Assembly: GCA_049997875.1 (NCBI GenBank)
Contig: JBEKRC010000004.1
Coordinates: forward strand, 8,928 to 72,927
DNA length: 64,000 bases
Reading direction: 5' to 3'
Origin: Minisyncoccia bacterium
Lineage (GTDB): Bacteria; Patescibacteriota; Minisyncoccia; UBA6257; 2-01-FULL-56-20
In this document: positions 34,511 through 58,432 of the stretch, one piece after another
How the letters are laid out: each line of letters begins with the position of its first letter
Numbering within the stretch: position 1 is the first letter of the stretch
Made by a program: the position numbers and the translations under genes
The notes under the pieces: generated by a model
The model's input: only the letters and a program-made list of their open reading frames with translations
Told to the model about the DNA's origin: nothing
Databases searched by the model: none

Positions 34511-35485
34511 CTACCGCCCGATGAGCTTCTTAAACTCCTCCACCATCGGCACCTCGTCGGGTTCAACGCCGTAGAGCTTCGCGGTGTAATACGCCGTCCA
34601 GTCGGCGAGGTTGAGCGCGGTGAATATCTTATGGAGCTCGTTTTTGCCCTGGAGGAGGACAACTTCCACCTTGAAGCCGCGGTCTTTGTAGAGCTTCTCC
34701 AAAACACTCATGCGCTTTGTGATGCGCCGGTCGTCGCCGCCGTCTTTCAGGAATACAAAGTGGAAATGGCGCGAAAGCGGCGCGGTGCGTTCCTTCGCGT
34801 CAAAACCGGTCATTTCGTTATGGTTCAGTTCGGGAACCACATTGCAAAATGCGGGAATTTTTCCCGTTTCGTTGAACTTTATCTTCCAGTTATACGCGAC
34901 CGTGGCATTGCGGAGCGACGCATAGATCACCGGCACCGATCCGTGCAGCCGCTTCGCGAGCTCGCGGCCACGATACTCTTCCCGTACGGGATGCAGCGTG
35001 GTCGCAAGTTCCCGCGCTTCCCATAGCCAGGTCTTCTCTCCTATAAGCGCGAGGGTTCCCATGAGCATAAGCCCCGTGGACATCCGTGGCTGTGCGTGGA
35101 AATCGGGGACCTGCACATAGGGCAGCTTAAGCTTCTGCGCAAGCGCGATCAATTTCCCGCGCGTGGCGATCACGGCCAAAGGAAGATGTTTTGCCCGCGT
35201 CATGTTGAATGCATCAATCGGCTCCTCGGTATTCCCGGAGTATGAACTTGCGATGACGAGCCGCTCTTTAAGATCCTTCTCATGGAGCGGCGGAAGACCG
35301 TAATTTGACCAACTAACGATATCCAACCCCGGGTGCCACGCCCTTATGATATCTGCCGCAAGGTGCGACCCGCCCATGCCAACTACTACGAACTTGGTGA
35401 ATTTCCGTTTCAGTTTTGCGGCATTTTCTACCTTCGGCTCATATGCGAACTGCTTCGCACAATTTTTGATATCGTCCAGCATCAT
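34511..35485 (-). CDS. Bifunctional phosphoglucose/phosphomannose isomerase (archaeal-type PGI/PMI, SIS domain)
   Basis: VVVGMGGSHLAADI SIS nucleotide loop, the family's characteristic length (324 aa) and conserved C-terminal region. Confidence 0.7.
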   Translation of the reverse strand: MMLDDIKNCAKQFAYEPKVENAAKLKRKFTKFVVVGMGGSHLAADIIRAWHPGLDIVSWSNYGLPPLHEKDLKERLVIASSYSGNTEEPIDAFNMTRAKHLPLAVIATRGKLIALAQKLKLPYVQVPDFHAQPRMSTGLMLMGTLALIGEKTWLWEARELATTLHPVREEYRGRELAKRLHGSVPVIYASLRNATVAYNWKIKFNETGKIPAFCNVVPELNHNEMTGFDAKERTAPLSRHFHFVFLKDGGDDRRITKRMSVLEKLYKDRGFKVEVVLLQGKNELHKIFTALNLADWTAYYTAKLYGVEPDEVPMVEEFKKLIGR

Positions 35486-36650: not shown

Positions 36651-38029
36651 TAGAGGTCGGTGAGCTCCGGTTCCAATAAAAGCGCCCACCGCTCCGGCGG
36701 AAAGCGCTTCGGGGCCATTTCAATACATGCAGTGAGGTTTGCGACGACCGTGTATTTTTCTTTATCCGGAATGCCGCGGACGATGTCCCGTACGAATATG
36801 CTTTTGAGTACCACGATGTGATCGGCTTTCCCCGCAAGCAACATCCCCAAGCGTTCGTTCCCGTTCTTGTCCGCCGGCCCGAGCTCCGGAATCCCTGCAG
36901 TGACCGCAAGAAGTTTTTTCCCTTTTTTGCGCGCCAACGATTCAGCGGCTGCGATTCCCGCCTGCGCGGTCGGGAAGCTGATATTATAGGAATCGTCAAT
37001 GCAGTCGTAACCATGCCACACGGTCGCCTTTTGGCGGCGGTCGGGCAGTGTGAGCTTTTGGGCGGCATCGTTAATGAATCTTTCCGGCGCGCCCAAGAGT
37101 TCCGCAGCCCGTGCGGCAAGCGCAAGGTCGGAACGGGCCGATGCAGAGAGGTGCGCGCCCGTATCCGCCACGTCCTCCTCGCCGACCATGATCGTTTGTC
37201 GCCCGCCGAGCAAGGGATCCACCATGCGCGCAACGTCCGGCGGTGCGAGCAGTTTTGCTCTCGGCTTCGCGTAGATGAAAACCTCGCCGAGCGCCGCGGC
37301 CAGGCGCGGAACGCTCCCGAAACGTTCCATGTGTTGATGCCCGATGCTTGTAAGAATGGCGACGTCGGGAGGTACGATGCGGCAACTTTCCCTTATCTCG
37401 CCCGCCCGATAGGCATCTACCTCCGCGATCAGAATCTCCGTATCGGGACGCAAATGTTCCATGATCCATCCCGCAATGCCCAATGGCGTGTTCACGTTCC
37501 CCGCTATCATCTGGACCGCCGCATGATGCCGCACAAGTTCGTACAGGAAATTCTTCGTTGTCGTCTTACCGAAGCTTCCCGCGATCGTCACAATGCGCAG
37601 GCCATTCACCGCGCGCACCTTTTCCGCGGCCCGGCGTATGCGCGCGTACCTCACCGGCAGATAGAAAGGGATAAAAACAATATTCGCTGCGAGTACAAAT
37701 AGCGGCACCGCAAGCAACCACACTATTGCCGCGGCCGTCCACGCGAACCAAGCATGCTGGTTGAAAAACACGCCCGCAAGCGACGCAAGCCAAAGCGCAA
37801 GAGCGATCGCAAGGACCGCGCCGGCGCGTGCCGTGTAGCGCAGGCGATCCCGCGCCTGGATGTTGCGCCGCAGAAAAAACCGCGGCAGCCATTTTAAATA
37901 CCGACGACTGCTATAATCCTCCTGCTGGAGAATATAGAGAAAATCCCCGAAGGGAAAAAGGATATTAAAGGCCTTCAATGAAACGTTTGACGATGCCATA
38001 GAACAAATGGGGATTTTTGAGATGGGCAT
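36644..38029 (-). CDS. murF: MurF-like Mur ligase with an unusual N-terminal membrane-helix extension (start uncertain)
   Basis: Mur ligase P-loop AGSFGKTTTKNFL and MurF-type IDDSYN motif. Two predicted TM helices replace the usual N-terminal domain; the track start overlaps the upstream hydrolase gene by 65 nt. Confidence 0.7.
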   Translation of the reverse strand: MPISKIPICSMASSNVSLKAFNILFPFGDFLYILQQEDYSSRRYLKWLPRFFLRRNIQARDRLRYTARAGAVLAIALALWLASLAGVFFNQHAWFAWTAAAIVWLLAVPLFVLAANIVFIPFYLPVRYARIRRAAEKVRAVNGLRIVTIAGSFGKTTTKNFLYELVRHHAAVQMIAGNVNTPLGIAGWIMEHLRPDTEILIAEVDAYRAGEIRESCRIVPPDVAILTSIGHQHMERFGSVPRLAAALGEVFIYAKPRAKLLAPPDVARMVDPLLGGRQTIMVGEEDVADTGAHLSASARSDLALAARAAELLGAPERFINDAAQKLTLPDRRQKATVWHGYDCIDDSYNISFPTAQAGIAAAESLARKKGKKLLAVTAGIPELGPADKNGNERLGMLLAGKADHIVVLKSIFVRDIVRGIPDKEKYTVVANLTACIEMAPKRFPPERWALLLEPELTDLYY

Positions 38030-38633
38030 TGTGCCCCGCCCTTTCTATTGTTGTGAGCTTGCTATTGGGAATCAAGCGCTGCATCTCACGCGCGATGCTT
38101 AAGGGAACCACGTCATCTCTATCCCCCCATATAAGGAGCGTGGGAACTGTAATCTTCTTCAAAAGGGCAGTTTGATCAAAAGAAACCGCTTTCCGAAAAA
38201 GTTCTCCCATTCCTTTTTGCTCGGCCTCCCGCAACTCCGGATTACCCCCTCGCCCGCGCACGCCAAGCGTTTTCAAAACGTGCGCGCCTGCAATCTTGAG
38301 GCGTGTAGAAAACTTCGGCCGCCGTATGGACGGCGCGGCATAGAGGATCAGTCCCTTAAGCCAACGGGGATCCTTACTCGCGATATAACTTGCGATCCTT
38401 CCGCCGAAGGAGTGGCCAAGGAGCACAATGTCATTCCCTTCTGGGGGAATGCTTTCAATTTTTGACGTTACCCATTCGGCATATTCCGGGACGCCCCAAT
38501 CCGGGACCGTGTGCGGCTCGCTCCCGAAGCCGGGGAGATCAAATACCACCACGTCCCCCTTCCGAAAAGGAGCGGCGAAAGTGTCCCAGAATCTTTTATC
38601 CTGTCCCCAACCGTGCAATATGACGATCTTCAT
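37965..38633 (-). CDS. Alpha/beta hydrolase (small esterase-like)
   Basis: VILHGWG...LLGHSFGG nucleophile elbow; 222 aa. Confidence 0.65.
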   Translation of the reverse strand: MKIVILHGWGQDKRFWDTFAAPFRKGDVVVFDLPGFGSEPHTVPDWGVPEYAEWVTSKIESIPPEGNDIVLLGHSFGGRIASYIASKDPRWLKGLILYAAPSIRRPKFSTRLKIAGAHVLKTLGVRGRGGNPELREAEQKGMGELFRKAVSFDQTALLKKITVPTLLIWGDRDDVVPLSIAREMQRLIPNSKLTTIERAGHNAHLKNPHLFYGIVKRFIEGL

Positions 38634-38854
38634 TTTTTTGTTTTTATAAGCCTGAACCTTGGTACTTTTTTCCCGTTGACCCTAATCCTTTCCGCAAACA
38701 TCGCGAGCGGGCGCACCCACATCTTCCTCTTTCCATATAGCGCCTGATACACCACCATTTTCTCGCCCGTTTCGCTGTGTGTTGCGATTACGATCACCTT
38801 ATATCTATTACCTTTATAGTGTTGGTAAATTCCTGTCTTCGGCTTGCGATCCAT
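38630..38854 (-). CDS. DUF1653 domain protein
   Basis: YQHYKGNRYKVI...ETGE..VVYQALYG...WVRPLAMF matches the DUF1653 pattern; ATG at 38854. Confidence 0.6.
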   Translation of the reverse strand: MDRKPKTGIYQHYKGNRYKVIVIATHSETGEKMVVYQALYGKRKMWVRPLAMFAERIRVNGKKVPRFRLIKTKK

Positions 38855-38861
38855 ATTGCTA

Positions 38862-41282
38862 TTATACTTCCTTCTTTCTCTCCCCCACCGAATGACCGCC
38901 GAAGCGGCTGCGGAGCGCGGAGAGGATTCGACCCGTATAGCTCGGCGCTTTTCGGGAACGCATGCGGAATTTGAACGCATCTTCTATCGCCGGCAGTTTC
39001 ACGCGCCACTTGCGGCCGGTCTTTAGGGTCCATTCACCCTCGCCGGTCGCGGCGACCGTGCCAGATACCGCATGTAGCTCCTTGCCATAAATGCGGAACG
39101 CGTCTTCCATCCAGCCAACGAGGCGCGATTCAATGACGCTGCCACGGTTGTATACGCGCGCAATCTTCTCAAGATCAAACTTGAATGGCGATTTTTTCAT
39201 GAGCGCGAAACCTTCCGCCAAGGACTGCATCATGCCGTATTCAATGCCGTTGTGGACCATCTTTACGAAATGGCCTGCGCCCGCATCGCCGAAATACGCG
39301 TAGCCCAAGGGCACGGAGAGGTCGGCGAAGAGCGGCTCCAGATATTCAAATGTTTTGCGGTCGCCGCCGATCATGAGCGAGCCGCCGTAGCGCGCGCCGT
39401 GCGGGCCGCCCGAGAAGCCCACATCCACAAACCGAATGCCGCGCTTGCCGAGAAGCTTCGCCCGCCGCACGCTGTCCTCAAAGAACGAATTGCCGGCGTC
39501 TATCACGATGTCGCCTTTTTGGAGGTGCGTCACAATGCCATTCCTGCTCCGTCCCGCGCCGAAGAGAAATTCGTCCACTCCTTTTCCGGCGGTGATCATG
39601 AGCCAGATCACGCGCGGCGAATGTCTTCGCGGCACCGCGAGCTCCGCCGCGAGTTCTGCGAGAGAATACGCCGCCTCAAAACCTTCTCCCTCCAGCTGTT
39701 GCAAGGACTCCGGCGAGCGATTGGCTGCGATGACGCGCCATCCTTTATCGCGCAGCTGCCATGCCACGTTCGCACCCATCTTCCCGAGCCCGAAAATGCC
39801 TATTTCCTTCGGAAGCGCCGAGGTCCCATTTCTTTCCGCCGCGTCATCAAATGCCGCCGCTTCGGCGACAATCTTACGGCCGCCCGGCGCGTAGTGCCGC
39901 AGCGGGACCAAGTTCTTTTTCCACGCAATGATGAACGGGTCTATGAACTTCCACATCGCGGCGATCTCCTCGCTTGAGACAAAGAGCGTCTGGTCGCCCG
40001 CGATGCAGTCCAAAATCAGTTTTTCGTATTCCTCGGTATATTGAGCATGAAGAACGGTTTTCCGAAAATCAAAATTAAATGTCCGTTCTTCAAACTCAAA
40101 CTTGTGTCCCGGCTTTTTGGAATGAAACTTGATGGTGATCCCCTCGGTCGGTTCAAGGTGAATGAAAATGCGGTTATGATGATGTTCGTTCCCTATGCAA
40201 AGGCAGGGCTGTTCGTGGCGCAGCACAATCTCTATCTCTTTGATCGGCTCGCCGAGGCGCTTCCCGCTTTCCATGACGAGCGGCATTCCCTCCCACCGCG
40301 CGCCGGTGAGGAATCCTTTGATACGAAAGTACGTTTCGGTTCTTGAACGGGGAGAAACGCCGGGTACGGAACGGTAGCCGTCGTATTGCGCGCGGAACGA
40401 GTTCTTTGCGGCTTCGCGGGGCGTCTGAATGACGAGGCGCCTCAAAAGCTCCGCGCGGAGCGGACGGATCGCTTGGGCGTCGTACCGCGCGGGCCGTTCC
40501 ATGGCAACGAGCGCGAGCATCTGCAGAAGATGGTTCTGTCCCACATCTTGTAGAGCGCCCACGTGGTCGTAGAATGGGCCGCGTCCCTCGACGCCGATTT
40601 TCTCAAACAGGCGGATGTGCACGCGCGCTATCGTACGGCTCGTCCATTCGTTTTCAAAAAGATCGTTCGCGAACCGGAACATCAGAATATTCTGCAACAT
40701 CTCCTTCGCCAGATAATGGTCTATCCGATACACTTGTTCCTCCCGAAAGAGCTTTGTCAGTTGGGCATCAAGCGCCTTCGCACTCTTCTCATTGTTGCCG
40801 AACGGCTTTTCCACAATTACGCGCGTCCATCCCTCGTTCGGACCGCAGCCGTCGGTCAGATGGCTGCGGTGCAGGTGGGCAAGGATGAGCGAATAAAACT
40901 GCGGCGGGACCGAAAGATAAAAAAGTTTGTTCGCGCACATGCCCCACGCATCGTCAATATTTTTCAAAAGATCGTTGAGCGCCAGGTAGTCCTCCGGAGA
41001 ATCAAACGCCAACCGATGGTACGCGGCAAGGTCAAGGAACGATCGTACGGTTGCGGCGGGCGCGTGCGATGTCCTCTCTTTAAGAATGGTGCGGAGGTGC
41101 GTACGGAGATCGTCGTCGCCCCACGCGCGCCTTGAAACGCCTACGAGTTTGAACTTTGGCGGCAGCTGCTTTTTTGCATGCAAATTAAAAAGCGCCGGCA
41201 CGATCTTTTTCGCCATAAGGTCGCCCGTGGCGCCCAAGACCACGAGAATGGTAGGAATGGTTTGTTTCCGCTCATCTATCAT
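38862..41282 (-). CDS. zwf: Fusion protein: glucose-6-phosphate dehydrogenase (N-terminal ~480 aa) + 6-phosphogluconate dehydrogenase-like NAD(P)-binding enzyme (C-terminal ~300 aa)
   Basis: N-terminal GATGDLMAKKIVPALF and Zwf active-site segment RIDHYLAKE. The C-terminal half has the 6PGDH Rossmann GIFGLGKMGANVAWQL plus ...GDAGAGHFVKMVHNGIEYGMMQ; 806 aa. Confidence 0.8.
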   Translation of the reverse strand: MIDERKQTIPTILVVLGATGDLMAKKIVPALFNLHAKKQLPPKFKLVGVSRRAWGDDDLRTHLRTILKERTSHAPAATVRSFLDLAAYHRLAFDSPEDYLALNDLLKNIDDAWGMCANKLFYLSVPPQFYSLILAHLHRSHLTDGCGPNEGWTRVIVEKPFGNNEKSAKALDAQLTKLFREEQVYRIDHYLAKEMLQNILMFRFANDLFENEWTSRTIARVHIRLFEKIGVEGRGPFYDHVGALQDVGQNHLLQMLALVAMERPARYDAQAIRPLRAELLRRLVIQTPREAAKNSFRAQYDGYRSVPGVSPRSRTETYFRIKGFLTGARWEGMPLVMESGKRLGEPIKEIEIVLRHEQPCLCIGNEHHHNRIFIHLEPTEGITIKFHSKKPGHKFEFEERTFNFDFRKTVLHAQYTEEYEKLILDCIAGDQTLFVSSEEIAAMWKFIDPFIIAWKKNLVPLRHYAPGGRKIVAEAAAFDDAAERNGTSALPKEIGIFGLGKMGANVAWQLRDKGWRVIAANRSPESLQQLEGEGFEAAYSLAELAAELAVPRRHSPRVIWLMITAGKGVDEFLFGAGRSRNGIVTHLQKGDIVIDAGNSFFEDSVRRAKLLGKRGIRFVDVGFSGGPHGARYGGSLMIGGDRKTFEYLEPLFADLSVPLGYAYFGDAGAGHFVKMVHNGIEYGMMQSLAEGFALMKKSPFKFDLEKIARVYNRGSVIESRLVGWMEDAFRIYGKELHAVSGTVAATGEGEWTLKTGRKWRVKLPAIEDAFKFRMRSRKAPSYTGRILSALRSRFGGHSVGERKKEV

Positions 41283-43720: not shown

Positions 43721-45388
43721 ATGGAGCGGGAAACGCGGGCGTGTGAGGACTGCAAAAACCAGTTCGCAATTGAGCCGGAGGATTTTGATTTTTATAAGAA
43801 AATGGGGGCTCAACCTCCAAGCATCTGTCCGAACTGTCGCTTTAAATGGCGAGCGCTCTATCGCAACGAACGTACTTTGTATAACTCCAGGTGCGGTCTA
43901 TGCGGGAAAACCATCATCTCCGCGTATAATCCCCGATCACCATACACGGCGTACTGCACGAAGTGCTTTGATTCAGACAATTGGGACCGATTCTCGTTCA
44001 ACGTCGATTTCGATTTCAAAAAGCCATTCTTTGAGCAACTCGGAGAACTTTTCAGAAAAACACCAAAGCAAGCCCTCTACATCACCCACAGCCCCACGAA
44101 CGTAAACAGCGAGTACATCAACTACGCCGGGCCATATGAAAAAAACTGCTATCTCGTCTCCAACTCCGGCGAAGGAGAAGAGGTGCTCTACTCCCGTGGT
44201 ATGCGGCATTGTAAATATGCTTCGGACCTTTACTACGCAACGTTTTTGGAAGATTGCTACGAATGCATCAATGGCCATCATTCCTCGCGCGTGTATCACG
44301 GGCAAAACGTAAGCGGCAGCATTGACTGCGCCTATGTCGCGAATTGCAGCGGGTGCACCCACTGCTTCGGGTGCGTGAATTTACGCAATCAAAAATATCA
44401 CTTTTTCAACGAACAACTTTCCAGGGAAGAATACGAGAGGAAGGTGCGTGAGATCTTGGGGAGTTACTCAAAAATGCAAGAGGCCGAGCAACGCTTTGAG
44501 CAATTTGCACTACAATTTCCGCAACGCGAGAATCAAAATCTGAAATCGGTGAATTGCATCGGTGACTATCTCACTGAATCGAAAAATACGAAGTATTCGT
44601 TCGAAGACACGAACTGTGAAGATTGCAAGCATGCCTTTTTCAGCAAGAATATGAAGGACTCTTACGACACCACTGGCTACGGATACAGTAGCGAGCTATT
44701 GCTCTCCGTCGCGGCGGCGGGATACTCCAACCGCGTTATTGGATCGGCGCTCATCTCCGCCAGCCACGATATTGATTACTCACTCGCGCTCAATACCTGC
44801 AATAACTGCATCGGCTGCGACGGCCTCAAAAACGCGGAATTTTGTTTGTTGAACAAGAAATATCCAGAAGTGGAATATAAGCGCATCAGAGAACACATTA
44901 TTAAAGAATTGAAGGGAAAGAACAGTTATGGTCTCCCGTTGCCTCCGGAGATCGGTCTCTTCGCCTACAACGAAACGATTGGGCAAGACAATTTGCCAAT
45001 GACCAAGGAAGAAGCGCTCGCACAGGGACTTGGATGGCAGGACGACGTGCAAACGACAAAGGGAAAGGAAACTATGCCGCTCGAAAAGATTCCGGACCAT
45101 ATCCGTGACGTTTCCGAATCTATTATCAAAGAAATTCTTGCATGTGCGGAGTGCGGCAGAAATTACCGCATCATTCCGCAGGAGCTACTCCTCTATAAAC
45201 GGCTTATCATCCCAATACCGCGAAAATGTTTCAACTGCCGTCACATGGCGAGGATCAAGAAGCGGGGACCGTTTACCCTCTACGATCGTCGGTGTGGTCG
45301 GTGCGGAAAAGATATCAAAACAAACTTTGCGCCGGAGAGGCCCGAAATCGTCTATTGTGAGCAGTGTTATCAGGCAGAGGTGATATAA
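43721..45388 (+). CDS. Large cysteine-rich protein (~40 Cys) with a duplicated ~80-aa double-zinc-ribbon module at both termini and a Cys/His-rich core
   Basis: The N-terminal module (CEDC..FAIEPEDFDFYKKM..CPNCR..LYNSRCGLCGK..YCTKCF) is repeated at the C-terminus (CAEC..YRIIPQELLLYKRL..CFNCR..LYDRRCGRCGK..YCEQCY). The core has repeated C-x2-C-x-G-C-x2-L-x-N motifs (NCSGCTHCFGCVNLRN / CNNCIGCDGLKN); AT-rich islet; it is the only plus-strand gene in a minus-strand block. Confidence 0.55.
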   Translation: MERETRACEDCKNQFAIEPEDFDFYKKMGAQPPSICPNCRFKWRALYRNERTLYNSRCGLCGKTIISAYNPRSPYTAYCTKCFDSDNWDRFSFNVDFDFKKPFFEQLGELFRKTPKQALYITHSPTNVNSEYINYAGPYEKNCYLVSNSGEGEEVLYSRGMRHCKYASDLYYATFLEDCYECINGHHSSRVYHGQNVSGSIDCAYVANCSGCTHCFGCVNLRNQKYHFFNEQLSREEYERKVREILGSYSKMQEAEQRFEQFALQFPQRENQNLKSVNCIGDYLTESKNTKYSFEDTNCEDCKHAFFSKNMKDSYDTTGYGYSSELLLSVAAAGYSNRVIGSALISASHDIDYSLALNTCNNCIGCDGLKNAEFCLLNKKYPEVEYKRIREHIIKELKGKNSYGLPLPPEIGLFAYNETIGQDNLPMTKEEALAQGLGWQDDVQTTKGKETMPLEKIPDHIRDVSESIIKEILACAECGRNYRIIPQELLLYKRLIIPIPRKCFNCRHMARIKKRGPFTLYDRRCGRCGKDIKTNFAPERPEIVYCEQCYQAEVI

Positions 45389-45399
45389 CCCCCGACAAC

Positions 45400-45810
45400 T
45401 TATACCTCGTACAAGCCGTCGAAATCGGCGAAGATAAGCCGGACGTTAAGGCCGGGAATGCGATTGCGAATGATCTCTCCCGCCTTTTTGAGCATGTCCT
45501 CATAGAACGCGCGGTCGTTGTTCCCGTCGCATGCGGCACAGTTCATATGCGCCATTGCGTAGAGCGTGGTGAAACCGTGTCCCATGAGCACTTCAATCTG
45601 CTCAAGGACAAACTCACGATCGCGCGGCTCTTTCGGTGTTACGAGCGGCTTCACTCCGCCCGGCACAAGGATAGGGTCGGGCATGTGGAAGGTGCCAGCC
45701 TGCGCGAACGTATGGCGCACTTCTTCGAACCTCTGATCGCAACACCAGAGAAACGCCTCGCTGTTATGATAATGCTCACTCGGCGATCGGTAATCAAAAA
45801 TCTTCTTCAT
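45400..45810 (-). CDS. Small hypothetical protein with beta-carbonic-anhydrase-like CxDxR and HxxC motifs (uncertain)
   Basis: WCCDQRF and HMNCAACDG motifs; only 136 aa from the ATG at 45810; 2 nt downstream of the atpC stop. Confidence 0.3.
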   Translation of the reverse strand: MKKIFDYRSPSEHYHNSEAFLWCCDQRFEEVRHTFAQAGTFHMPDPILVPGGVKPLVTPKEPRDREFVLEQIEVLMGHGFTTLYAMAHMNCAACDGNNDRAFYEDMLKKAGEIIRNRIPGLNVRLIFADFDGLYEV

Positions 45811-45811
45811 C

Positions 45812-46060
45812 CTATTTGCCCTCCTCAACGAGAAATCTCGCTTCATTCCCCGAGCGGACTTCCAAAAAACCGGAGCTCACGGGAATATAGTGCTCTTTTT
45901 GGTTATTATCAACAATTTTCATCGTTCCCTTGCTCAAAACGGAGATGAGCGGCCGGTGGTGGTTCAAAATGGTGATCTCGCCTATCCGCGTGCGGCAATT
46001 CACCAAAGACGCCTCGCCCTGAAACAACACCTTTTGCAATGAATAGACGCCGATTCTCAT
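45812..46060 (-). CDS. atpC: ATP synthase epsilon chain (short, beta-sandwich domain only)
   Basis: 82 aa; the pattern LVNCRTRIGEITILNHHRPLISVL...YIPVSSGFLEV matches the epsilon N-domain. Confidence 0.75.
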   Translation of the reverse strand: MRIGVYSLQKVLFQGEASLVNCRTRIGEITILNHHRPLISVLSKGTMKIVDNNQKEHYIPVSSGFLEVRSGNEARFLVEEGK

Positions 46061-46065
46061 GATTG

Positions 46066-47460
<1,395 letters not shown>

Positions 47461-47463
47461 TTA

Positions 47464-48396
47464 TTACGATGCCTGCGTGCCAGACGTGATCTCAATGATC
47501 TCCCGCGTGATGTTTGCCTGGCGTGATTTATTGTATTCCATGTTGAGGTCCTCCGAAAGTTCGGAGGCGTTATCCGAAGCGTTCTTCATCGCCACGCGCC
47601 GCGCGGAATGCTCCGAGGCGTTCGCCTCCAAAATCGCGTGGTAGATACGGATTCTCAACAGCTCTGGCGCAAGTTCCGCAAGTACTTCTTTCGGCGACGG
47701 CTCGATAAGATATTCCCGTTCTTTTTCCTCAAGGAACGATTCCGATCTTGCATACTGGGAATACCGCCCGGCGCGCGGAATGGTCTCTTCAATGGATTGC
47801 TTGATCACCTCGTACCCGATGGGCAAGAACTCACGCGCGACGGCGTCCTGCCGCAGCGCGGTCACGAATGTGGTGAAGAACACGACCACACTGTCAAAAT
47901 CGTGCCTTAAAAATCCTTCAATCAAAAAATTGGAAATGGGCTCCACCTCTTCCCGCTTCGTATAATCGCCCACGCGCGTGAAGGTCCCAACCACATTGAG
48001 TTTTCGCCGCTCAAGATAGCTCTTCGCTTTCTGGCCAACCGCAACAAAAGCATATTGCGGATTGTGCGGATCAATATGTTCTGATCGGAGAAAATGTTCA
48101 AATCTTCTGATAACAGCGCTGTTGAACGAGCCCGCAAGCCCTTTATCGGAGGTCACAATCATGAATGCCGTTTTTATGACCGGCCGCGCAACGAGAAGCT
48201 CCGGCATTGGCACGTCTTTAAGTTCGGAAAGAATACCCAAAAGTTCCAGCGCGGTATAGGCATACGGCCGTGAAGTGAGCGCAAGTTCCTGCGCACGGCG
48301 CATCTTTGTGGCCGCCACAAGTTCCATCGCCTTCGTAATCTGCCCGATATTCTGGACGCTCTTTATGCGCCGCTTGAGATTCTGTGCCGATTCCAT
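47464..48396 (-). CDS. atpG: ATP synthase F1 gamma subunit
   Basis: 310 aa; N-terminal IKSVQNIGQITKAMELVAATKMRRAQ and C-terminal ITREIIEI match gamma. Confidence 0.9.
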   Translation of the reverse strand: MESAQNLKRRIKSVQNIGQITKAMELVAATKMRRAQELALTSRPYAYTALELLGILSELKDVPMPELLVARPVIKTAFMIVTSDKGLAGSFNSAVIRRFEHFLRSEHIDPHNPQYAFVAVGQKAKSYLERRKLNVVGTFTRVGDYTKREEVEPISNFLIEGFLRHDFDSVVVFFTTFVTALRQDAVAREFLPIGYEVIKQSIEETIPRAGRYSQYARSESFLEEKEREYLIEPSPKEVLAELAPELLRIRIYHAILEANASEHSARRVAMKNASDNASELSEDLNMEYNKSRQANITREIIEITSGTQAS

Positions 48397-49923
48397 TTAT
48401 TTGGTGAGAAAGCGCATGATGGCTTCTTTTAATTTCGCTTCCGTTGCGTCGGAGAAATCGCCTGTATCGCGGATCGGTTTTAAAATGTCGTTCTCGTGGA
48501 GCTTCGCTAAATAGTCCAGCAAGCCGTATTCGGTTTTTTTGATATCTTCCACTGCGACGTTCTCAAAATAGTTGTTGAGCACCGCGTAGAAGACGCATAC
48601 CTGCTTCTCGAACGGCACAGGCGCAAGGTCTTCCTGCTTCAAAACCTCGTTGATTTTCTGGCCTTGCGCGATTTTCTTTTTCGTCGCTTCGTCCACGTCG
48701 GTCGCGAACTGCACGAATGCCTGGAGCTCGCGGAATTGCGCGTGGGCAAGGCGCAGCTTGCCGGCCACTTTTTTCATCGCTTTCGTCTGCGCGGTAGAAC
48801 CCACGCGCGAAACGGAGATACCGACGTTCAGTGCCGGGCGCAAGCCCTGGTAAAAGAGGTCGGATTCCAGATAGATCTGCCCGTCCGTGATGGAAATGAT
48901 GTTGGTCGGAATATATGCCGTCACGTCGCCGAGCTGCGTCTCAACGATCGGCAACGCGGTCAGGGATCCGCCGCCTTTTTCCTTGGAAAGTTTCGCGGCG
49001 CGTTCAAGCAAACGCGAGTGCAAGTAGAAAATGTCGCCCGGATATGCCTCACGGCCTGGCGGGCGCCGGAGCAGGAGTGAAATCTGCCGGTACGCCCACG
49101 CATGTTTTGAAAGATCGTCGTAAATGACGAGCGCATCTTGGCCCTTGTCGCGGAAGTATTCCCCTATCGCGCAGCCGGCATAGGGCGCGAGGTACCATAA
49201 GGCCGCGGGCGAGGATGCCGACGCCGCGATGATAATGGTGTATTTCAATGCATCAAATTTTTTCAGCGTTTCCGCGATCCTCACGATCTTGGATTCTTTC
49301 TGCCCGATCGCCACATAAATACAAATAGGGGTGCGCCGCGTTTTGTCGTTCAATTGATTTAAAATAGCGTCCAGTGCGAGCGCCGTTTTCCCCACCTGCC
49401 GGTCGCCGATGATAAGCTCACGCTGGCCGCGGCCGATCGGAATCATAGAGTCAATGGCCTTGAGGCCGGTATGGAGCGGCGTGTTCACCGATTCTCTTTC
49501 CAAGACCGACGGCGAGTGTCCCTCAAGCGGATTCCTCTGCGGTTTCGCGTTAGTTTTAAAAACGGGTCCACGCCCGTCCAGCGGCACGCCCAACGGATTC
49601 ACCACGCGGCCGATAAGTTCCTCGCCCACCTCAATGGAGAGCACCTGGCCGGTGCGTTTCACCGTATCCCCGACCTCAATCGTCAAAAAGTCGTCAAGTA
49701 CCAAAGCGCCGATGGATTCCTCTTCAAGGTTCAGTGCAAGTGCCGCACGCGTGCCCTGTGTGGTTTCAATTGCCAAAATTTCTTGGCTCACCGCGTTTCG
49801 GAGACCCAGGATCTTCACGATGCCGTCGCCCACCTCAATCACGCGGCCGATTTCCTGCCATTCAAGCTTTTCTTTGTATCCCTCAATCTCCCGTTTTAGT
49901 TTTTCTATTATTTCGTAAGACAT
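48397..49923 (-). CDS. atpA: ATP synthase F1 alpha subunit
   Basis: P-loop [12 protein letters not shown]; 508 aa. Confidence 0.97.
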
Positions 49924-50309
49924 TATTGAAATAACTTGTCCAATTTCCCCTTGAGCGAGCCGTCAAACTGAAGTTCGTCGTTGATCAAGACCCTCACTCC
50001 CGCCACGAGCTCCGGATCTATCTTTTCCTCAATAACGTCGCCCTGTTTCGTGAGCGCCCGGAGCGCTCGCTTCTGCGTTGCGGGAAGCGACCGCGCCGTC
50101 TCTATCGTCATTTTCCGTACCCCGCTTTTTCCCCGCACGAACCGCGCCGCTTCTTCCACAAGCTTCCGCAGATGCGCTTCGTCGCCGTTCTGCCGCACGA
50201 GCGCGATGAACCGCCTGACAATTGCGTCCTGCGCCGCACCACTCTCTCCTTTCGCGGCCACGATCACTTCGGCAAGCGCTTTCGCGTAAATGTGGGCGGG
50301 GTATTTCAT
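49923..50309 (-). CDS. atpH: ATP synthase delta subunit (OSCP), short
   Basis: 128 aa, helical; position between atpF and atpA; YAKALAEV N-terminus. Confidence 0.7.
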
Positions 50310-50809
50310 GCGGTTCGTTTTGCTTCTTCCACCGCCTTCGCGATCAAGGCGTCGTCAATCTTCTCCGGCGACATTTCCACGGTTTTTGCGATGGCGCGCC
50401 GCACGAGCGCCGCGGCTTCCTTGTCCATTGCCTTTCTCGCGTCCTCCTCCTTGGCCCGAACACGCTCGCCCATGTCCCGCATCGCTTCTGCTTCTTTGCG
50501 CTTCGCCTCGGCGAGCATTCTCGTTTCCACCACCTTCGCGTCGGCCTCGGTTTTCTTCAAAATGCCCACTGCCTGCACTTCCGCCTCTTTTATTTTCCCC
50601 TTGCCGATCTCCTCCACTTCCGCGAGGCGCCGGTCGGCCTCGTCGGCTTTCTGAAGTCCCTCTTCAATCCTCGCACGCCGGTCATGCAGAAGCTTCAAAA
50701 GCGGCTTGTAGACAAAAATCCGCAGTACCACGAGGAGCAGGAAAAAATTGACCGCCTGGCTCAAGAGCAGGTGCCAATCTATCCCAAGCTGTGAGAATAA
50801 TTGTTGCAT
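50306..50809 (-). CDS. atpF: ATP synthase Fo subunit b
   Basis: N-terminal TM helix then a long charged coiled coil; 167 aa. Confidence 0.8.
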   Translation of the reverse strand: MQQLFSQLGIDWHLLLSQAVNFFLLLVVLRIFVYKPLLKLLHDRRARIEEGLQKADEADRRLAEVEEIGKGKIKEAEVQAVGILKKTEADAKVVETRMLAEAKRKEAEAMRDMGERVRAKEEDARKAMDKEAAALVRRAIAKTVEMSPEKIDDALIAKAVEEAKRTA

Positions 50810-50842
50810 AAAACCCGACTACCGGTTACTGGTTACTGGTTT

Positions 50843-51073
50843 CTAAGAGACGAACTTGATGATGAGTGCAATGACAAGCGAATAGATCGCGATGGCTTCC
50901 GCGAACGCGATGGCCAGGATCGCCATCGTTTGCACTTTGGTCGCCGCTTCGGGATTCCTTCCGATCGCATCCACTGCCTTTGAACCGATCCAGCCAATCG
51001 CGATTGCGGGCACGATGGTGCCCATGCCGATGGCGCCGAACGTGGCAAGAAGCCGGATACTGTTAACGTCCAT
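50843..51073 (-). CDS. atpE: ATP synthase Fo subunit c
   Basis: Two-helix hairpin with GRNPE loop and the conserved acidic residue in helix 2 (AFAEAIAIY). Confidence 0.9.
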   Translation of the reverse strand: MDVNSIRLLATFGAIGMGTIVPAIAIGWIGSKAVDAIGRNPEAATKVQTMAILAIAFAEAIAIYSLVIALIIKFVS

Positions 51074-51096
51074 GCGTAATTGTTTTTGAATGAAGT

Positions 51097-51858
51097 TTAT
51101 GCGACCTTTTCAATTGCGTGCTCGTCAAAATCTTCGCCGTGCGAAACCGCTATGGCGACAAACACGAGGGTAAGCATCCCGAAGATGAACGCCTGGATGA
51201 ACCCGACGAAAATCTCCAAAAACATAAATGGCAAGGGCGCCAGGTACGGTACCAAAAAGGCCATGATGGCCAGAAGCACCTCCCCCGCAAAAATGTTCCC
51301 GAAGAGCCGGAATGAGAACGAAATAATCTTAGCAAATTCGGAGACAAGTTCAAGGATGCCCACGAAAAAGTCTATGGGCCCCTTGAAGTTGAAGAAAACC
51401 GAAAGGCGTGCCTTTAATCCAACGGCTGCTACGCCGAACGCGTTCGCGAAGGTGACCGCGATGAGCGCGAGCGCTAGCGTAAAGTTAAGGTCGCTCGCGG
51501 GCGAACGCAGGAGCGGGATCGCCCCGCCCCCCTGACGGACCACGATAGAACTCACTCCCGGGAAAAGCCCGAGCCAGTTTGAGCACAAAATGAAAAAGAA
51601 GACCGTGAACACGAGCGGCAGATATTTTTCCGCCTTTTTACGGCTGCCGAGCACGGAACTCATGAGGCCGAGGGCGCCCTCAAGGAGAATCTCTATGACG
51701 CCCTGTGCATTGCCGGGAACAAAAGAAAGTTTGCGCCGCAACGCGATCGCCACCACGGTCAAAAGCACAAAGACAAGCGCGGCCAGGAGGACCGCATTCG
51801 TCACCGGGAAGCTCCCGATGCGAAAAATCTCTTCCGCGCGAAGCGAAATTTGCAGCAT
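51097..51858 (-). CDS. atpB: ATP synthase Fo subunit a
   Basis: Five or six TM helices and the conserved Arg-containing helix (SFSFRLFGNIFAGE). Confidence 0.9.
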   Translation of the reverse strand: MLQISLRAEEIFRIGSFPVTNAVLLAALVFVLLTVVAIALRRKLSFVPGNAQGVIEILLEGALGLMSSVLGSRKKAEKYLPLVFTVFFFILCSNWLGLFPGVSSIVVRQGGGAIPLLRSPASDLNFTLALALIAVTFANAFGVAAVGLKARLSVFFNFKGPIDFFVGILELVSEFAKIISFSFRLFGNIFAGEVLLAIMAFLVPYLAPLPFMFLEIFVGFIQAFIFGMLTLVFVAIAVSHGEDFDEHAIEKVA

Positions 51859-52520: not shown

Positions 52521-52991
52521 TCAACCAAGCTTTGGCAACGCAAAGGGACTCTTCAGATATTCGCGGTACAGGCAAATGTTTTCCATATGATCAAACGCAA
52601 TCTCACTTTCAGGAGGCAATGCATTCAAGGAGAACCATCGCAATTCACTGTTTTCATCGTCGGGGACGCCGGTTTGTCCCAATGCGGTGCAATAATGTAC
52701 AAAAGAGATATTTTGCCTGTCTTCCCCGGGACGATGAGGACTATCAACGATGCGCAGAAGAACGAGGTCTTTCACCTTGTACCCGGTTTCTTCAAACACC
52801 TCGCGCACCACCGCTTCCTGAATGGTTTCGCCAAGCTCCATATAGCCACCAACGAGCGCCCATTTGCCACCCTCTAAAAACTTTTGCGCGCGCTTTACAA
52901 GTAGAATCTTGTCATTTTTGAGAACGAGGGCATCAATCACTGCATGACGCAACGAAGCCTTGCCCCCGTCTTCAAATATACAAGTAATCAT
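52521..52991 (-). CDS. NUDIX hydrolase
   Basis: Nudix box GGKWALVGGYMELGETIQEAVVREVFEETG. Confidence 0.85.
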   Translation of the reverse strand: MITCIFEDGGKASLRHAVIDALVLKNDKILLVKRAQKFLEGGKWALVGGYMELGETIQEAVVREVFEETGYKVKDLVLLRIVDSPHRPGEDRQNISFVHYCTALGQTGVPDDENSELRWFSLNALPPESEIAFDHMENICLYREYLKSPFALPKLG

Positions 52992-53581
52992 GTTTGAACC
53001 AGTTCCGCCAAAATATCTTCGGTCTTCCGGACGCGCCCCATCCTCGGAAAAATATTTTTGACGGAGTTTTCGTGCTCCTCGCCCGTGCGGCTGGACGTCA
53101 TGGCATCTTCGGCAAAAATCTGCTGATAGCCGTATTCGTACGCGAAGCGGGCAGTGCTTTCCACGCCGATACTCGTAGAGATGCCGCAGAGCACGATCGT
53201 ATCAATGCCGCGCCGCCGCAATTGGAGGTCCAACTCGGTGCCGTAGAACGCGCCCCACTGGCGCTTCGTGATCACGAAATCTCCCGGCTCGGGGCCAAGT
53301 TCGGGAACGATCTCCGCCCAATCCGGCGCCATGTTCGGAGAGGCCGGAAAGGCAGGCGCATCGGCGATCGGCGTGAGACCGTCCTTCCTATCCGGCGACG
53401 GCGTGACCCTCACGAGAAATACCGGCATCCCGTTTTTCCGGAAGGCTCGCGCAAGAGCGGAAGCGTTCTTCACGACCAAGCCCGACTCGTGCGGCCCGCA
53501 CGGCCTCCCCACAATGCCCTTTTGAAGATCAATCACCACCAGTGCCGTCTTGGTTTTGTCGGCAATGATACGATCAGCCAT
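52988..53581 (-). CDS. Isochorismatase-family cysteine hydrolase
   Basis: N-terminal ALVVIDLQKG, catalytic Cys in TIVLCGISTSIGVEST. Confidence 0.8.
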   Translation of the reverse strand: MADRIIADKTKTALVVIDLQKGIVGRPCGPHESGLVVKNASALARAFRKNGMPVFLVRVTPSPDRKDGLTPIADAPAFPASPNMAPDWAEIVPELGPEPGDFVITKRQWGAFYGTELDLQLRRRGIDTIVLCGISTSIGVESTARFAYEYGYQQIFAEDAMTSSRTGEEHENSVKNIFPRMGRVRKTEDILAELVQT

Positions 53582-57381: not shown

Positions 57382-58432
57382 CTATAACATTTCAAGCTCC
57401 GCTTCAATGAACAGGTCTAGGTCGCCCGCGAGCACTGCGTCCACTTTCGCCGTTTCCGCCTCCGTGCGGTGGTCCTTCACCATTTGGTAAGGGTTCAGAA
57501 CATACGAACGGATCTGGTTTCCCCACTCGGGCTTTACCTTCACGCGCAACGCGCCGATCTCGCTCACCTTTTCCTTCTCCATCAGATTAAAAAGCTTCGC
57601 CTTGAGGAGCTTGAGCGCATACGCGCGGTTCTGCGCCTGCGAGCGCTGCGCTTGCGAACTTACGGCGAGCCCGGTCGGGAGATGCACCACGCGCACTGCC
57701 GTTTCCACCTTGTTCACATTCTGTCCGCCCGGACCGCCCGAGCGATAGAATTCAAATTTAAGGTCTTTTTCCGGGATCTGCAGTTTTGATTCTTCAAGCG
57801 GCGGCAAATCCGGAATCACTTCCACGAGCGCGAACGACGTGTGTCGCAGCTTTTTAGGCGAAAACGGCGAAATACGCACAAGGCGGTGGACGCCGGATTC
57901 TTTCTTCAAATATCCGTAGGCGTAATCCCCTTTTATTTCCACTGTCCGCGAGCGGATGTTGTCGTCAATCACCCGCAGCTTCCATCCGCGCCGCTTCGCG
58001 TAACTTTCATACATAACGCCCAGCATCCGCGCCCAGTCCTCTGCATCCTCGCCGCCCGCGCCGGGATAAACCGCGAGCACTGCCGCCTGTATGTCATAGC
58101 GCCCGACAAACAGCTGCTTCAGTTCAAACTCCTTGAATTTCTTTTTCAGTTCGTAAAATTTCGCTTCGTCAAAACTCTCGCCGCCTGCCGCGGCCATGAG
58201 TGCCGCGATGCCACTTTCAATTTCGCGGTACTGTACCACGAGATCATTCAGAACTCCCAGCTCTTTGATTGCTTCATCTGCCGCTGCGCGGTTTTTCCAA
58301 AACGCCCCGTCGGCCATCTCGGCCGTGAGTTCCTTTATTCTCTTTTCACTTGCGGCCAAGTCAAAGCCGCCCGCCTAACCGGCGGGCATCGGTCGCAAGC
58401 TCATCTAATTCTTTTCTTGTGTTTGTATCCAT
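57382..58432 (-). CDS. prfB: Peptide chain release factor 2, with the programmed +1 ribosomal frameshift (CTT TGA C at 58360..58366)
   Basis: Frame 0 (ATG 58432) encodes [23 protein letters not shown] and stops at an in-frame TGA within CTTTGAC; the +1 frame continues [12 protein letters not shown]... through SPF (RISPFSPKK) and GGQ ([11 protein letters not shown]). An SD-like GGCGGGCGG precedes the shift site. Confidence 0.9.

What the first reader, a model, noticed from the sequence alone, without database searches (positions are those of the whole stretch)
38862..41282. Single-polypeptide fusion of glucose-6-phosphate dehydrogenase and a 6-phosphogluconate-dehydrogenase-like enzyme
One 806-aa ORF contains a complete Zwf (GATGDL NADP loop, RIDHYLAKE active site) joined without a stop to a ~300-aa short-type 6PGDH module (GIFGLGKMGANVA Rossmann, GDAGAGHFVKMVHNGIEYG). 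Steps 1 and 3 of the oxidative pentose-phosphate branch would sit on one chain, and the lactonase step is not obviously present nearby. The known bifunctional forms are G6PD-6PGL (Plasmodium, H6PD). A G6PD-6PGDH fusion is not the textbook arrangement and would be informative about NADPH supply in a reduced genome. A sequencing or assembly frameshift joining two genes is the alternative.
Basis: partly seen in the sequence, partly recalled or inferred. Interest (0 to 1): 0.55.

Follow-up and report, generated by a model that had tools for sequence, protein, structure and literature searches.

The report
Fused G6PD–6PGDH enzyme in Patescibacteria
One 806-residue gene in a small-genome Patescibacteria (CPR) bacterium really does join glucose-6-phosphate dehydrogenase to a short 6-phosphogluconate dehydrogenase; the fusion is conserved across many CPR lineages, and I found no paper describing it in bacteria, but it is built from two ordinary enzymes that are operon neighbours elsewhere.

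Summary
Window 38862..41282 (-) is one 806-aa ORF. Residues 11-469 pass the curated zwf model and residues 494-800 pass the short-chain 6PGDH models. The HIBADH model scores far below its cutoff.

It is not an assembly artefact. The gene DNA is identical in five independent assemblies. All 120 best relatives (57-100% identity) are full-length fusions. About 12 more fused clusters (37-51% identity) come from Paceibacteria/Minisyncoccia and Microgenomates/Woesebacteria.

Catalytic residues of both halves are conserved in every fusion examined. The 6PGDH cofactor triplet is N-R-S, the NADP type. The junction is the normal Zwf C-terminal helix plus a short, variable, low-confidence linker.

In other phyla zwf and short gnd are adjacent but separate genes. 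A Moraniibacteriota relative has zwf, a stop codon, 13 nt and then gnd. The fusion is therefore most simply an operon merger.

No lactonase gene lies in the 64-kb window or beside four relatives. A PGI gene directly follows the fusion in three of those relatives.

The only published G6PD-6PGD fusion I found is in the diatom Phaeodactylum.

Verdict: real, a new bacterial variant of a known kind, of moderate interest. Public annotation names only one of the two activities.

The parts
38862..41282 (-). Whole fused zwf-gnd ORF, 806 aa plus stop codon
   Evidence: ORF. (domains). (identical gene in five independent assemblies).
39876..41243 (-). Zwf (G6PD) catalytic module, residues 14-469: G6PD_N 14-198 and G6PD_C 200-469. 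It carries GATGDL (17-22), R51/R52, EKPFG K159, RIDHYLAKE (186-194) and H251.
   Evidence: Fold match to solved G6PDs with TM 0.83-0.89 normalised to the target.
39828..39875 (-). Residues 470-485: conserved helix (consensus AIxAEAxV...) that is the native C-terminal element of Zwf, kept in the fusion.
   Evidence: E474 and A475 in 46 and 47 of 49 sequences. (helix 470-485). (the stand-alone Moraniibacteriota Zwf ends with the equivalent ...GSTPEEIITHNVRKH*).
39807..39827 (-). Residues 486-492: the true linker, variable in length and composition across the family. The P466-to-G498 spacing is 28-44 aa.
   Evidence: length range and column variability. (pLDDT below 50 at residues 481-488). (in frame, no stop codon).
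38865..39806 (-). Short-chain 6PGDH (Gnd) module, residues 493-806. It has the Rossmann motif GLGKMG (498-503), the NADP-type triplet N521-R522-S523, S624-G-G, and catalytic K674, H677, N678 and E681.
38892..38912 (-). C-terminal RX2FGXH motif (R791-S-R-F-G-G-H797). In short-chain 6PGDH this motif contacts the 6-phosphogluconate bound in the adjacent subunit.
   Evidence: Present in all 26 fused sequences examined. Its role is described for the Gluconobacter enzyme in PMC12871650.
34511..35485 (-). PGI (bact-PGI_C family, 324 aa), which would supply glucose-6-phosphate from fructose-6-phosphate. It is the conserved partner gene of the fusion.
   Evidence: It directly follows the fusion gene in L089, L090 and L091 at 72-73% identity.
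37965..38854 (-). Tightly packed downstream genes on the same strand: DUF1653 (38630..38854) and an alpha/beta hydrolase (37965..38633). These are local neighbours only and are not conserved with the fusion.
   Evidence: Both are absent next to the fusion.

Best explanation
The gene encodes a genuine bifunctional enzyme of about 90 kDa (estimated from its length). The N-terminal two-thirds is a complete glucose-6-phosphate dehydrogenase (Zwf). It is followed by its own C-terminal helix, a short flexible linker, and a complete short-chain 6-phosphogluconate dehydrogenase (Gnd). With the conserved neighbouring PGI the inferred route is fructose-6-P to glucose-6-P, then to 6-phosphogluconolactone by the Zwf module (first NADPH). 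The lactone is then hydrolysed, either spontaneously or by an unlinked lactonase. The Gnd module converts 6-phosphogluconate to ribulose-5-P plus CO2 (second NADPH). Both modules carry NADP-type cofactor residues, so the product would supply NADPH and pentose in a Patescibacteria cell. The fusion most likely arose when a zwf-to-gnd operon lost the zwf stop codon and the short spacer. The Zwf-first order leaves the Gnd C-terminal tail free, and that tail must reach into a neighbouring subunit's active site. Shown here: the single frame, domain membership, residue conservation, taxonomic spread and gene neighbourhood. Inferred: both activities, cofactor preference, oligomeric state, how the lactone is hydrolysed, and the selective reason for the fusion (most simply fixed 1:1 co-expression and genome compaction).
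For: The ORF is a single frame. Both halves pass curated equivalog cutoffs. The gene DNA is identical in five independent assemblies and the protein is on 14 contigs. All 120 best relatives are 781-844-aa fusions. About 12 further fused clusters at 37-51% identity carry the same four Pfam domains, and the named ones come from Woesebacteria/Microgenomates, Minisyncoccia and 'Patescibacteria group'. Zwf residues D188, H189, K193, H251 and K159, and Gnd residues K674, H677, N678, E681, S624 and R791..H797, are conserved in all 26 fused sequences examined. The triplet N-R-S/T occurs in 22 of 26 fusions, matching the Asn32-Arg33-Thr34 that defines NADP+ specificity (PMC8900737). The solved short-chain enzymes, one of them deposited as NAD+-dependent, carry Asp at the first position. 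The AF2 model (pLDDT 81) shows two folded modules with a low-confidence segment at 481-488. Unfused zwf-gnd neighbours exist in Moraniibacteriota (13-nt spacer), Bacillales and a Mycobacterium MAG, and 37 of 80 sampled loci have adjacent gnd-zwf. Both halves fall in one CPR clade. PGI directly follows the fusion in three divergent relatives.
Against: There is no biochemical or proteomic evidence that the full-length protein exists or that both modules are active. No lactonase was found near the gene, so the middle step is unexplained. Cofactor preference rests on motif analogy only. Some database entries name family members 'NAD(+)-dependent', and 3 of the 26 fusions examined deviate at the triplet. 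In NJ trees the fusions are not cleanly monophyletic (0 of 50 bootstraps), so a single origin is not shown. The promoter and terminator consensus scans gave nothing above chance.
Confidence: 0.85

Rival explanations
1. Sequencing or assembly frameshift: two separate genes (zwf and gnd) were wrongly joined into one ORF.
For: Zwf and short gnd are often adjacent separate genes, sometimes in the same frame. One example is Moraniibacteriota L006, with a 13-nt spacer.
Against: The 2421-nt gene is 100% identical in five assemblies from five samples and three pipelines. More than 130 diverged homologues keep one frame. Junction lengths vary by whole codons with no conserved internal Met. The junction has no homopolymer run.
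Confidence: 0.01
2. The single ORF yields two separate proteins in the cell, either by proteolytic cleavage in the linker (as suspected for some diatom fusion enzymes) or by internal translation initiation before the Gnd module.
For: The linker is variable and predicted to be disordered. [quoted passage not shown]
Against: No Met or conserved start-like codon precedes the Gnd Rossmann strand; the residue before E-I-G is K or R in 46 of 49 sequences. The stand-alone Gnd starts with its own Met and a spacer. Long-term retention of the frame across lineages at 37-100% identity argues that the covalent link is selected.
Confidence: 0.07
3. The C-terminal half is not a 6PGDH but another beta-hydroxyacid dehydrogenase (HIBADH, tartronate-semialdehyde reductase), or one half is a catalytically dead scaffold.
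For: The Rossmann part gives weak hits to HIBADH, tartronate-semialdehyde reductase and 2-Hacid_dh_C.
Against: HIBADH scores 65 bits against a cutoff of 291.6, and tartronate-semialdehyde reductase 68 against 340.75. The 6PGDH models pass their cutoffs. The GHFVKMVHNGIEYG block and the RX2FGXH tail are conserved in every fusion examined. The best PDB matches are short-chain 6PGDHs at E about 1e-55. All Zwf catalytic residues are likewise conserved.
Confidence: 0.02
4. The fusion is a catabolic, NAD+-linked module, as the product name 'NAD(+)-dependent' given to some members implies. It would feed sugar carbon into pentoses and fermentation rather than supply NADPH.
For: TIGR00872 is titled NAD(+)-dependent and passes its cutoff. 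The nearest unfused relatives carry the NAD-type Asp: D-P-D in Moraniibacteriota and D-L/V-N in Bacillales.
Against: The window protein and 22 of 26 fusions have N-R-S/T, the NADP-specificity triplet. It scores higher, relative to cutoff, on NF007161 'NADP-dependent'. The Zwf Arg51 is conserved in all fusions examined; its role in binding the 2'-phosphate is from my own knowledge of G6PD structures.
Confidence: 0.08

Closest known systems
Phaeodactylum tricornutum G6PDH/6PGDH fusion (protein 54663; Kroth 2008 PMC2173943; Stover 2011 PMC3148214)
   Same: It has the same two activities on one predicted chain, named in the same order (G6PDH then 6PGDH). It also skips the lactonase step. It appears to have arisen from adjacent same-frame genes, 39 nt apart, with the first lacking a stop codon.
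   Different: It is eukaryotic and was reported as restricted to one diatom and its closest relatives. Its reality was questioned by a later JGI re-annotation. In 2011 no other such fusion was found in nr. The type of its 6PGD (long or short) and any homology to the bacterial fusion were not tested here, because I did not have its sequence. The bacterial family is large, diverged and consistently in frame.
G6PD-6PGL bifunctional enzymes (Plasmodium GluPho, Giardia/Trichomonas G6PD::6PGL, metazoan H6PD)
   Same: [quoted passage not shown] These fusions arose independently several times (PMC3148214).
   Different: Their partner is the lactonase (Pfam Glucosamine_iso), which catalyses the consecutive step. 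The window protein has no such domain and joins steps 1 and 3 instead. A Zwf-Pgl fusion does turn up among the database representatives (P0266, source organism not looked up), which shows the two architectures are distinct.
Stand-alone short-chain 6PGDHs (Gluconobacter oxydans 6XEQ, Gluconacetobacter diazotrophicus 6VPB, Gnd2 8IHE, Geobacter 4E21; tetrameric in G. oxydans, while the review PMC8900737 lists the G. diazotrophicus enzyme as the one dimeric exception)
   Same: The module is about 310 aa with a single helical hemi-domain. It has the same catalytic Lys and Glu and the RX2FGXH tail.
   Different: Those enzymes are free-standing and carry Asp at the cofactor triplet (D-R-T, D-R-D, D-H-D, D-L-N). 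The fusion has N-R-S and a 490-residue Zwf attached to its N-terminus.
zwf/gnd(short) operons of other bacteria (37 gnd>zwf and 6 zwf>gnd adjacent pairs among 80 sampled loci)
   Same: They hold the same two gene families side by side. The zwf>gnd pairs of Moraniibacteriota and Bacillales are the nearest relatives of both halves.
   Different: They are separate ORFs with stop codons and spacers. The nearest ones have an NAD-type Gnd triplet and no adjacent PGI.

Membership tests
Glucose-6-phosphate dehydrogenase, Zwf (TIGR00871; EC 1.1.1.49) | Whole-protein score above the curated equivalog cutoff | tested here: met
   452 bits against a cutoff of 400.6, residues 11-469. Pfam G6PD_N scores 190 bits and G6PD_C 256 bits.
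Glucose-6-phosphate dehydrogenase, Zwf (TIGR00871; EC 1.1.1.49) | Dinucleotide fingerprint GxxGDLA, the EKPFG lysine, the active-site peptide RIDHYLGKE (Asp-His dyad and Lys) and the catalytic His (H240 in Leuconostoc numbering; residue roles are from my own knowledge of the family) | tested here: met
   G17, T19, G20 and D21; K159; R186-I-D188-H189-Y-L-A-K193-E (Ala in place of Gly); H251 in the QNHLLQ block. D188, H189, K193, K159 and H251 are conserved in all 25 fused sequences of the Zwf alignment. The alignment to 9EMM shows the same blocks.
Glucose-6-phosphate dehydrogenase, Zwf (TIGR00871; EC 1.1.1.49) | G6PD fold | tested here: met
   The AF2 model matches solved G6PDs with TM 0.83-0.89 normalised to the target, rmsd about 3 A.
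Glucose-6-phosphate dehydrogenase, Zwf (TIGR00871; EC 1.1.1.49) | Measured G6P-dependent NADP+ reduction | not testable with these tools
   This needs an enzyme assay.
Short-chain 6-phosphogluconate dehydrogenase (TIGR00872 gnd_rel / NF007161) | Score above the curated cutoffs, and clearly better than the sister beta-hydroxyacid dehydrogenase models | tested here: met
   TIGR00872 scores 305 against 297 and NF007161 scores 321 against 271. HIBADH scores 65 against 291.6 and tartronate-semialdehyde reductase 68 against 340.75.
Short-chain 6-phosphogluconate dehydrogenase (TIGR00872 gnd_rel / NF007161) | Single, non-duplicated helical hemi-domain, subunit of about 300-350 aa | tested here: met
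   The module spans 493-806 (314 aa). Pfam 6PGD matches profile positions 1-115 of 290 only. The long-chain models TIGR00873 and NF006765 fall below their cutoffs.
Short-chain 6-phosphogluconate dehydrogenase (TIGR00872 gnd_rel / NF007161) | Catalytic Lys and Glu in the GHxVKMVHNGIEY block, and the C-terminal RX2FGXH motif that binds 6PG of the neighbouring subunit | tested here: met
   K674, H677, N678, E681 and R791-x-x-F-G-x-H797 are conserved in all 26 fused sequences of the Gnd alignment. The motif is defined in PMC12871650.
Short-chain 6-phosphogluconate dehydrogenase (TIGR00872 gnd_rel / NF007161) | Tetrameric assembly with C-terminal helix exchange between subunits | not testable with these tools
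   Only a monomer was modelled. This needs SEC-MALS, cryo-EM or a multimer prediction.
NADP+-specific 6PGDH (as opposed to NAD+-preferring) | Asn-Arg-Thr/Ser triplet at the beta2 turn, binding the 2'-phosphate (Asn32-Arg33-Thr34 of the sheep enzyme; PMC8900737) | tested here: met
   The window protein has N521-R522-S523, and 22 of 26 fusions have N-R-S/T. The solved short-chain enzymes have Asp at the first position. Actual preference was not measured.
G6PD-6PGL bifunctional enzymes (GluPho / H6PD type) | A 6-phosphogluconolactonase domain (Pfam PF01182 Glucosamine_iso) on the same chain | tested here: not met
   The query has no PF01182 hit at E up to 0.01. The same scan detects the domain in P0266.
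Diatom-type G6PDH/6PGDH fusion (Phaeodactylum 54663) | G6PD followed by 6PGD on one chain | tested here: met
   The order in the diatom is taken from the papers' naming.
Diatom-type G6PDH/6PGDH fusion (Phaeodactylum 54663) | Common descent of the fused gene (shared junction, same 6PGD subtype) | not tested
No protein longer than 868 aa appeared among the best 150 representatives.

The most novel reading that the evidence does not exclude
The covalent link lets the G6PD dimer/tetramer interface and the short-6PGDH tetramer interface build a defined higher-order particle. In that particle the lactone made by the Zwf module would be hydrolysed and consumed locally. These Patescibacteria would then run a lactonase-free oxidative pentose-phosphate branch as their main NADPH source. 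The switch of the Gnd module from NAD-type (in the unfused sister pairs) to NADP-type would have accompanied the fusion.
Probability: 0.1. Interest if true: 0.6.

Novelty: new variant of a known kind. Interest (0 to 1): 0.38.

Why it matters
Practical. Public records name these proteins as either G6PD alone or 6PGDH alone. Automated metabolic reconstructions of Patescibacteria could therefore score the oxidative pentose-phosphate branch as incomplete when both dehydrogenases are in fact present. Recognising the fusion corrects NADPH and pentose budgets for a large, uncultivated, small-genome radiation.

Evolutionary. It is a clean Rosetta-stone case. The same two genes are separate neighbours in many phyla, are 13 nt apart in one CPR lineage, and are fused in many others. 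Here the fusion joins non-consecutive steps, unlike the well-studied G6PD-6PGL fusions.

Biochemical. It offers a natural single-chain enzyme that should yield two NADPH per substrate, and a test of whether a short-chain, tail-swapping 6PGDH tolerates a large N-terminal partner.

None of this overturns current understanding of the pathway.

Tried and rejected
1. The downstream DUF1653 gene or the 222-aa alpha/beta hydrolase might be a surrogate lactonase. Rejected: neither is next to the fusion in four divergent relatives.

2. Single origin of the fusion. NJ trees of each half put all fusions in one CPR clade, but unfused CPR sequences nest inside it (0 of 50 bootstraps for monophyly). This stays unresolved: repeated fusion, fission, or weak resolution. 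The first tree script timed out.

3. Taxonomic census through genome contigs. My first frame test wrongly flagged gnd>zwf pairs as fused; one search corrects this.

4. The promoter and terminator consensus scans gave nothing above shuffled expectation. By eye there is a TATAAT about 29 nt upstream of the ATG in the 43-nt divergent intergenic region, but this is not evidence of function.

5. Literature searches for a bacterial or CPR Zwf-Gnd fusion found only the diatom case and engineered zwf-gnd co-expression constructs.

6. Whole-genome presence or absence of pgl, tkt, tal and rpi could not be tested.
Full report
**Observation.** The window holds a single ORF at 38862..41282 on the minus strand: 806 aa, ATG start. 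Pfam finds four domains in order: G6PD_N (14-198), G6PD_C (200-469), NAD_binding_2 (493-656) and 6PGD (670-778). The 6PGD hit covers only profile positions 1-115 of 290. NCBIfam places residues 11-469 in TIGR00871 zwf (452 bits, cutoff 400.6). It places residues 494-800 in TIGR00872 gnd_rel (305 bits, cutoff 297) and in NF007161 (321 bits, cutoff 271). The long-chain 6PGDH models and the sister beta-hydroxyacid dehydrogenase models fall far below their cutoffs; HIBADH scores 65 against 291.6.

**Artefact test.** The exact protein is on record on 14 contigs. Five loci fetched from five samples and three assembly sources (Logan SRR7028380 and SRR7028244; JGI 3300038418 and 3300038451; ENA ERZ27249952) carry a gene that is 100% identical over all 2421 nt. 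The junction DNA is in frame, with no stop codon and no homopolymer run. All 120 best relatives among 5.8 billion proteins are 781-844-aa proteins with the same four domains, at 57-100% identity. The named ones come from Minisyncoccia, Paceibacterota and 'Patescibacteria group' MAGs. An exhaustive phmmer search of 1.84 billion 50%-identity cluster representatives finds about 12 further full-length fused clusters at 37-51% identity. Past those, hits become stand-alone Zwf (~450-500 aa) or stand-alone short Gnd (~306 aa). Pfam confirms the four-domain architecture in the distant clusters. Cluster names add Microgenomates/Woesebacteria, on contigs up to 928,688 bp. An assembly error is excluded.

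**Anatomy.** In an alignment of 49 fusion members the Zwf residues D188, H189, Y190, K193, E194, K159, H251, R51 and R52 are invariant. The Gnd residues G498, G500, N521, R522, N598, S624-G-G, K674, H677, N678, E681 and R791...F794-G-G-H797 are also invariant. In the more distant fusions all catalytic positions still hold. The last group is the RX2FGXH motif. In the Gluconobacter short-chain enzyme this motif contacts the 6-phosphogluconate bound in the adjacent subunit (PMC12871650). The spacing between P466 and G498 ranges from 28 to 44 residues. Its first part (consensus PDSxAIxAEAxV) is conserved and corresponds to the normal Zwf C-terminus. The middle is variable and of low complexity. 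The end, (K/R)-E-I-G-x-F-G-L-G-K-M-G, is the first Rossmann strand. No conserved Met precedes the Gnd module.

The AF2 model (mean pLDDT 80.9, pTM 0.61) shows two well-folded modules. It has a helix at 470-485, a low-confidence segment at 481-488, and the first Rossmann strand at 493-497. The N-half superposes on solved G6PDs with TM 0.83-0.89 normalised to the target. No solved chain covers both halves.

**Cofactor.** The review PMC8900737 states that Asn32-Arg33-Thr34 bind the 2'-phosphate and define NADP+ specificity in 6PGDH. The window protein has N521-R522-S523. In pairwise HMMER alignments the NADP-dependent Geobacillus enzyme has N-R-L at this site. The solved short-chain enzymes have D-R-T, D-R-D, D-H-D (8IHE, deposited as NAD+-dependent) and D-L-N. 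Twenty-two of the 26 fused sequences examined have N-R-S/T. The nearest unfused zwf>gnd pairs carry Asp: D-P-D in Moraniibacteriota, D-L/V-N in Bacillales and D-H-N in a Mycobacterium MAG. In the Zwf half the G-x-x-R arginine (R51) is conserved in all fusions examined; its role in binding the 2'-phosphate is from my own knowledge of G6PD structures. I therefore infer, without measurement, that both modules use NADP+.

**Origin.** Tested for frame continuity, the 80 loci gave 1 fused locus (a Paceibacteria MAG), 37 with adjacent but separate gnd>zwf, and 6 with adjacent but separate zwf>gnd. In the Moraniibacteriota locus, zwf ends with TAA and gnd begins with ATG 13 nt later. NJ trees of each half place all fusions, together with the unfused CPR sequences, in one clade whose nearest outside relatives are the Bacillales pairs. 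Fusions are not strictly monophyletic (0 of 50 bootstraps). The simplest reading is an operon merger by loss of the stop codon within Patescibacteria. Whether this happened once with later fissions, or several times, is unresolved. All fusions seen have the Zwf-first order, even though gnd>zwf is the commoner operon order. I infer this is because the Gnd C-terminal tail has to stay free to reach a neighbouring subunit's active site.

**Context.** Pfam tables of the called genes cover the whole 64-kb window. They show no lactonase (PF01182 or PF10282), transketolase, transaldolase or pentose-phosphate isomerase/epimerase. A bact-PGI_C phosphoglucose isomerase lies 3.4 kb downstream at 34511..35485 (-). 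In three divergent relatives (59-63% identical fusions) the same PGI family, at 72-73% identity, follows the fusion gene directly. In a fourth relative it does not. None of the 80 loci from other phyla has this PGI within the flanks. The DUF1653 and alpha/beta-hydrolase genes packed behind the fusion in the window are not conserved partners.

The inferred module is therefore PGI, then Zwf, then lactone hydrolysis, then Gnd. The hydrolysis is either spontaneous (known chemistry of the delta-lactone, noted in PMC3148214) or carried out by a gene outside the window.

**Comparison with what is known.** G6PD-6PGL fusions are well described (Plasmodium, Giardia/Trichomonas, H6PD; PMC3148214). The window protein lacks their defining lactonase domain. 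A G6PD-6PGD fusion has been reported once, in Phaeodactylum tricornutum (PMC2173943). Stover et al. found no other such fusion in nr in 2011 and noted that a re-annotation had split the diatom gene. Five full-text searches found no description of a natural bacterial Zwf-Gnd fusion. The sequences are public, however, and their precomputed Pfam domains show the architecture. I rate it a new, bacterial, short-chain variant of a known kind of pathway fusion.

**Verdict.** The finding is real and its interpretation is essentially right. The interest is moderate. The components are ordinary and operon-neighbour fusions are common. On the other side, the family is large, apparently undescribed, joins non-consecutive steps, and is systematically half-annotated. 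That half-annotation can mislead metabolic reconstructions of Patescibacteria.

Noticed in passing
window 60584..61318 (+) and 57382..58359 (-): There are two class-I release-factor-like genes (Pfam PCRF + RF-1). Both look short to me: 244 aa and 311 aa (the ORF is 325 aa from a TTG start). A 242-aa counterpart sits upstream of ftsE/ftsX in relative L092.
   Followed up: no
window 8644..9486 (-): A free-standing 280-aa ORF gives a weak LAGLIDADG_3 (homing-endonuclease-like) hit. It lies between a zinc-ribbon gene and an Exo_endo_phos gene.
   Followed up: no
window 43721..45388 (+): A 555-aa ORF has no Pfam hit. In other assemblies of the same region (L002, L004) this place is called as 337-aa and 102-aa genes, while L001 and L003 keep 555 aa. 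This points to a strain-level indel or stop-codon difference.
   Followed up: no
proteins P0266, P0242, P0137: Other Zwf fusions appear among the database representatives. P0266 (768 aa) is Zwf followed by a full 6-phosphogluconolactonase domain. P0242 has a lactonase fragment before Zwf. P0137 (868 aa) is Zwf plus about 420 C-terminal residues with no Pfam hit.
   Followed up: partly
fusion family: Public product names give only one activity for these proteins: 'glucose-6-phosphate dehydrogenase', or 'phosphogluconate dehydrogenase (NAD(+)-dependent, decarboxylating)'. The second name conflicts with the NADP-type N-R-S triplet seen in most members.
   Followed up: partly
Gnd residues 521-523 across loci: The cofactor triplet correlates with fusion state. 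Twenty-two of 26 fused sequences have N-R-S/T. The nearest unfused zwf>gnd pairs (Moraniibacteriota, Bacillales, Mycobacterium MAG) have Asp at the first position. Short Gnds of other phyla show both types.
   Followed up: partly
L089 12506..13477, L090 12469..13440, L091 12623..13603; window 34511..35485 (-): A bact-PGI_C phosphoglucose isomerase directly follows the fusion gene in three divergent Paceibacteria genomes. In the window it is displaced 3.4 kb by the DUF1653, hydrolase, Mur-ligase and ddl genes. It is absent from the flanks of all 80 loci of other phyla.
   Followed up: yes
window 45399..45809 (-), downstream of the ATP synthase epsilon gene: The complete F-type ATP synthase operon (about 45811..51858, minus strand) is followed by a 136-aa gene with a weak Pro_CA_2 (carbonic-anhydrase-like) hit.
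   Followed up: no
window about 52521..53581 (-): An isochorismatase-family gene (197 aa, 52988..53581) is directly followed by a NUDIX hydrolase gene. This pair could relate to nicotinamide/NAD salvage.
   Followed up: no
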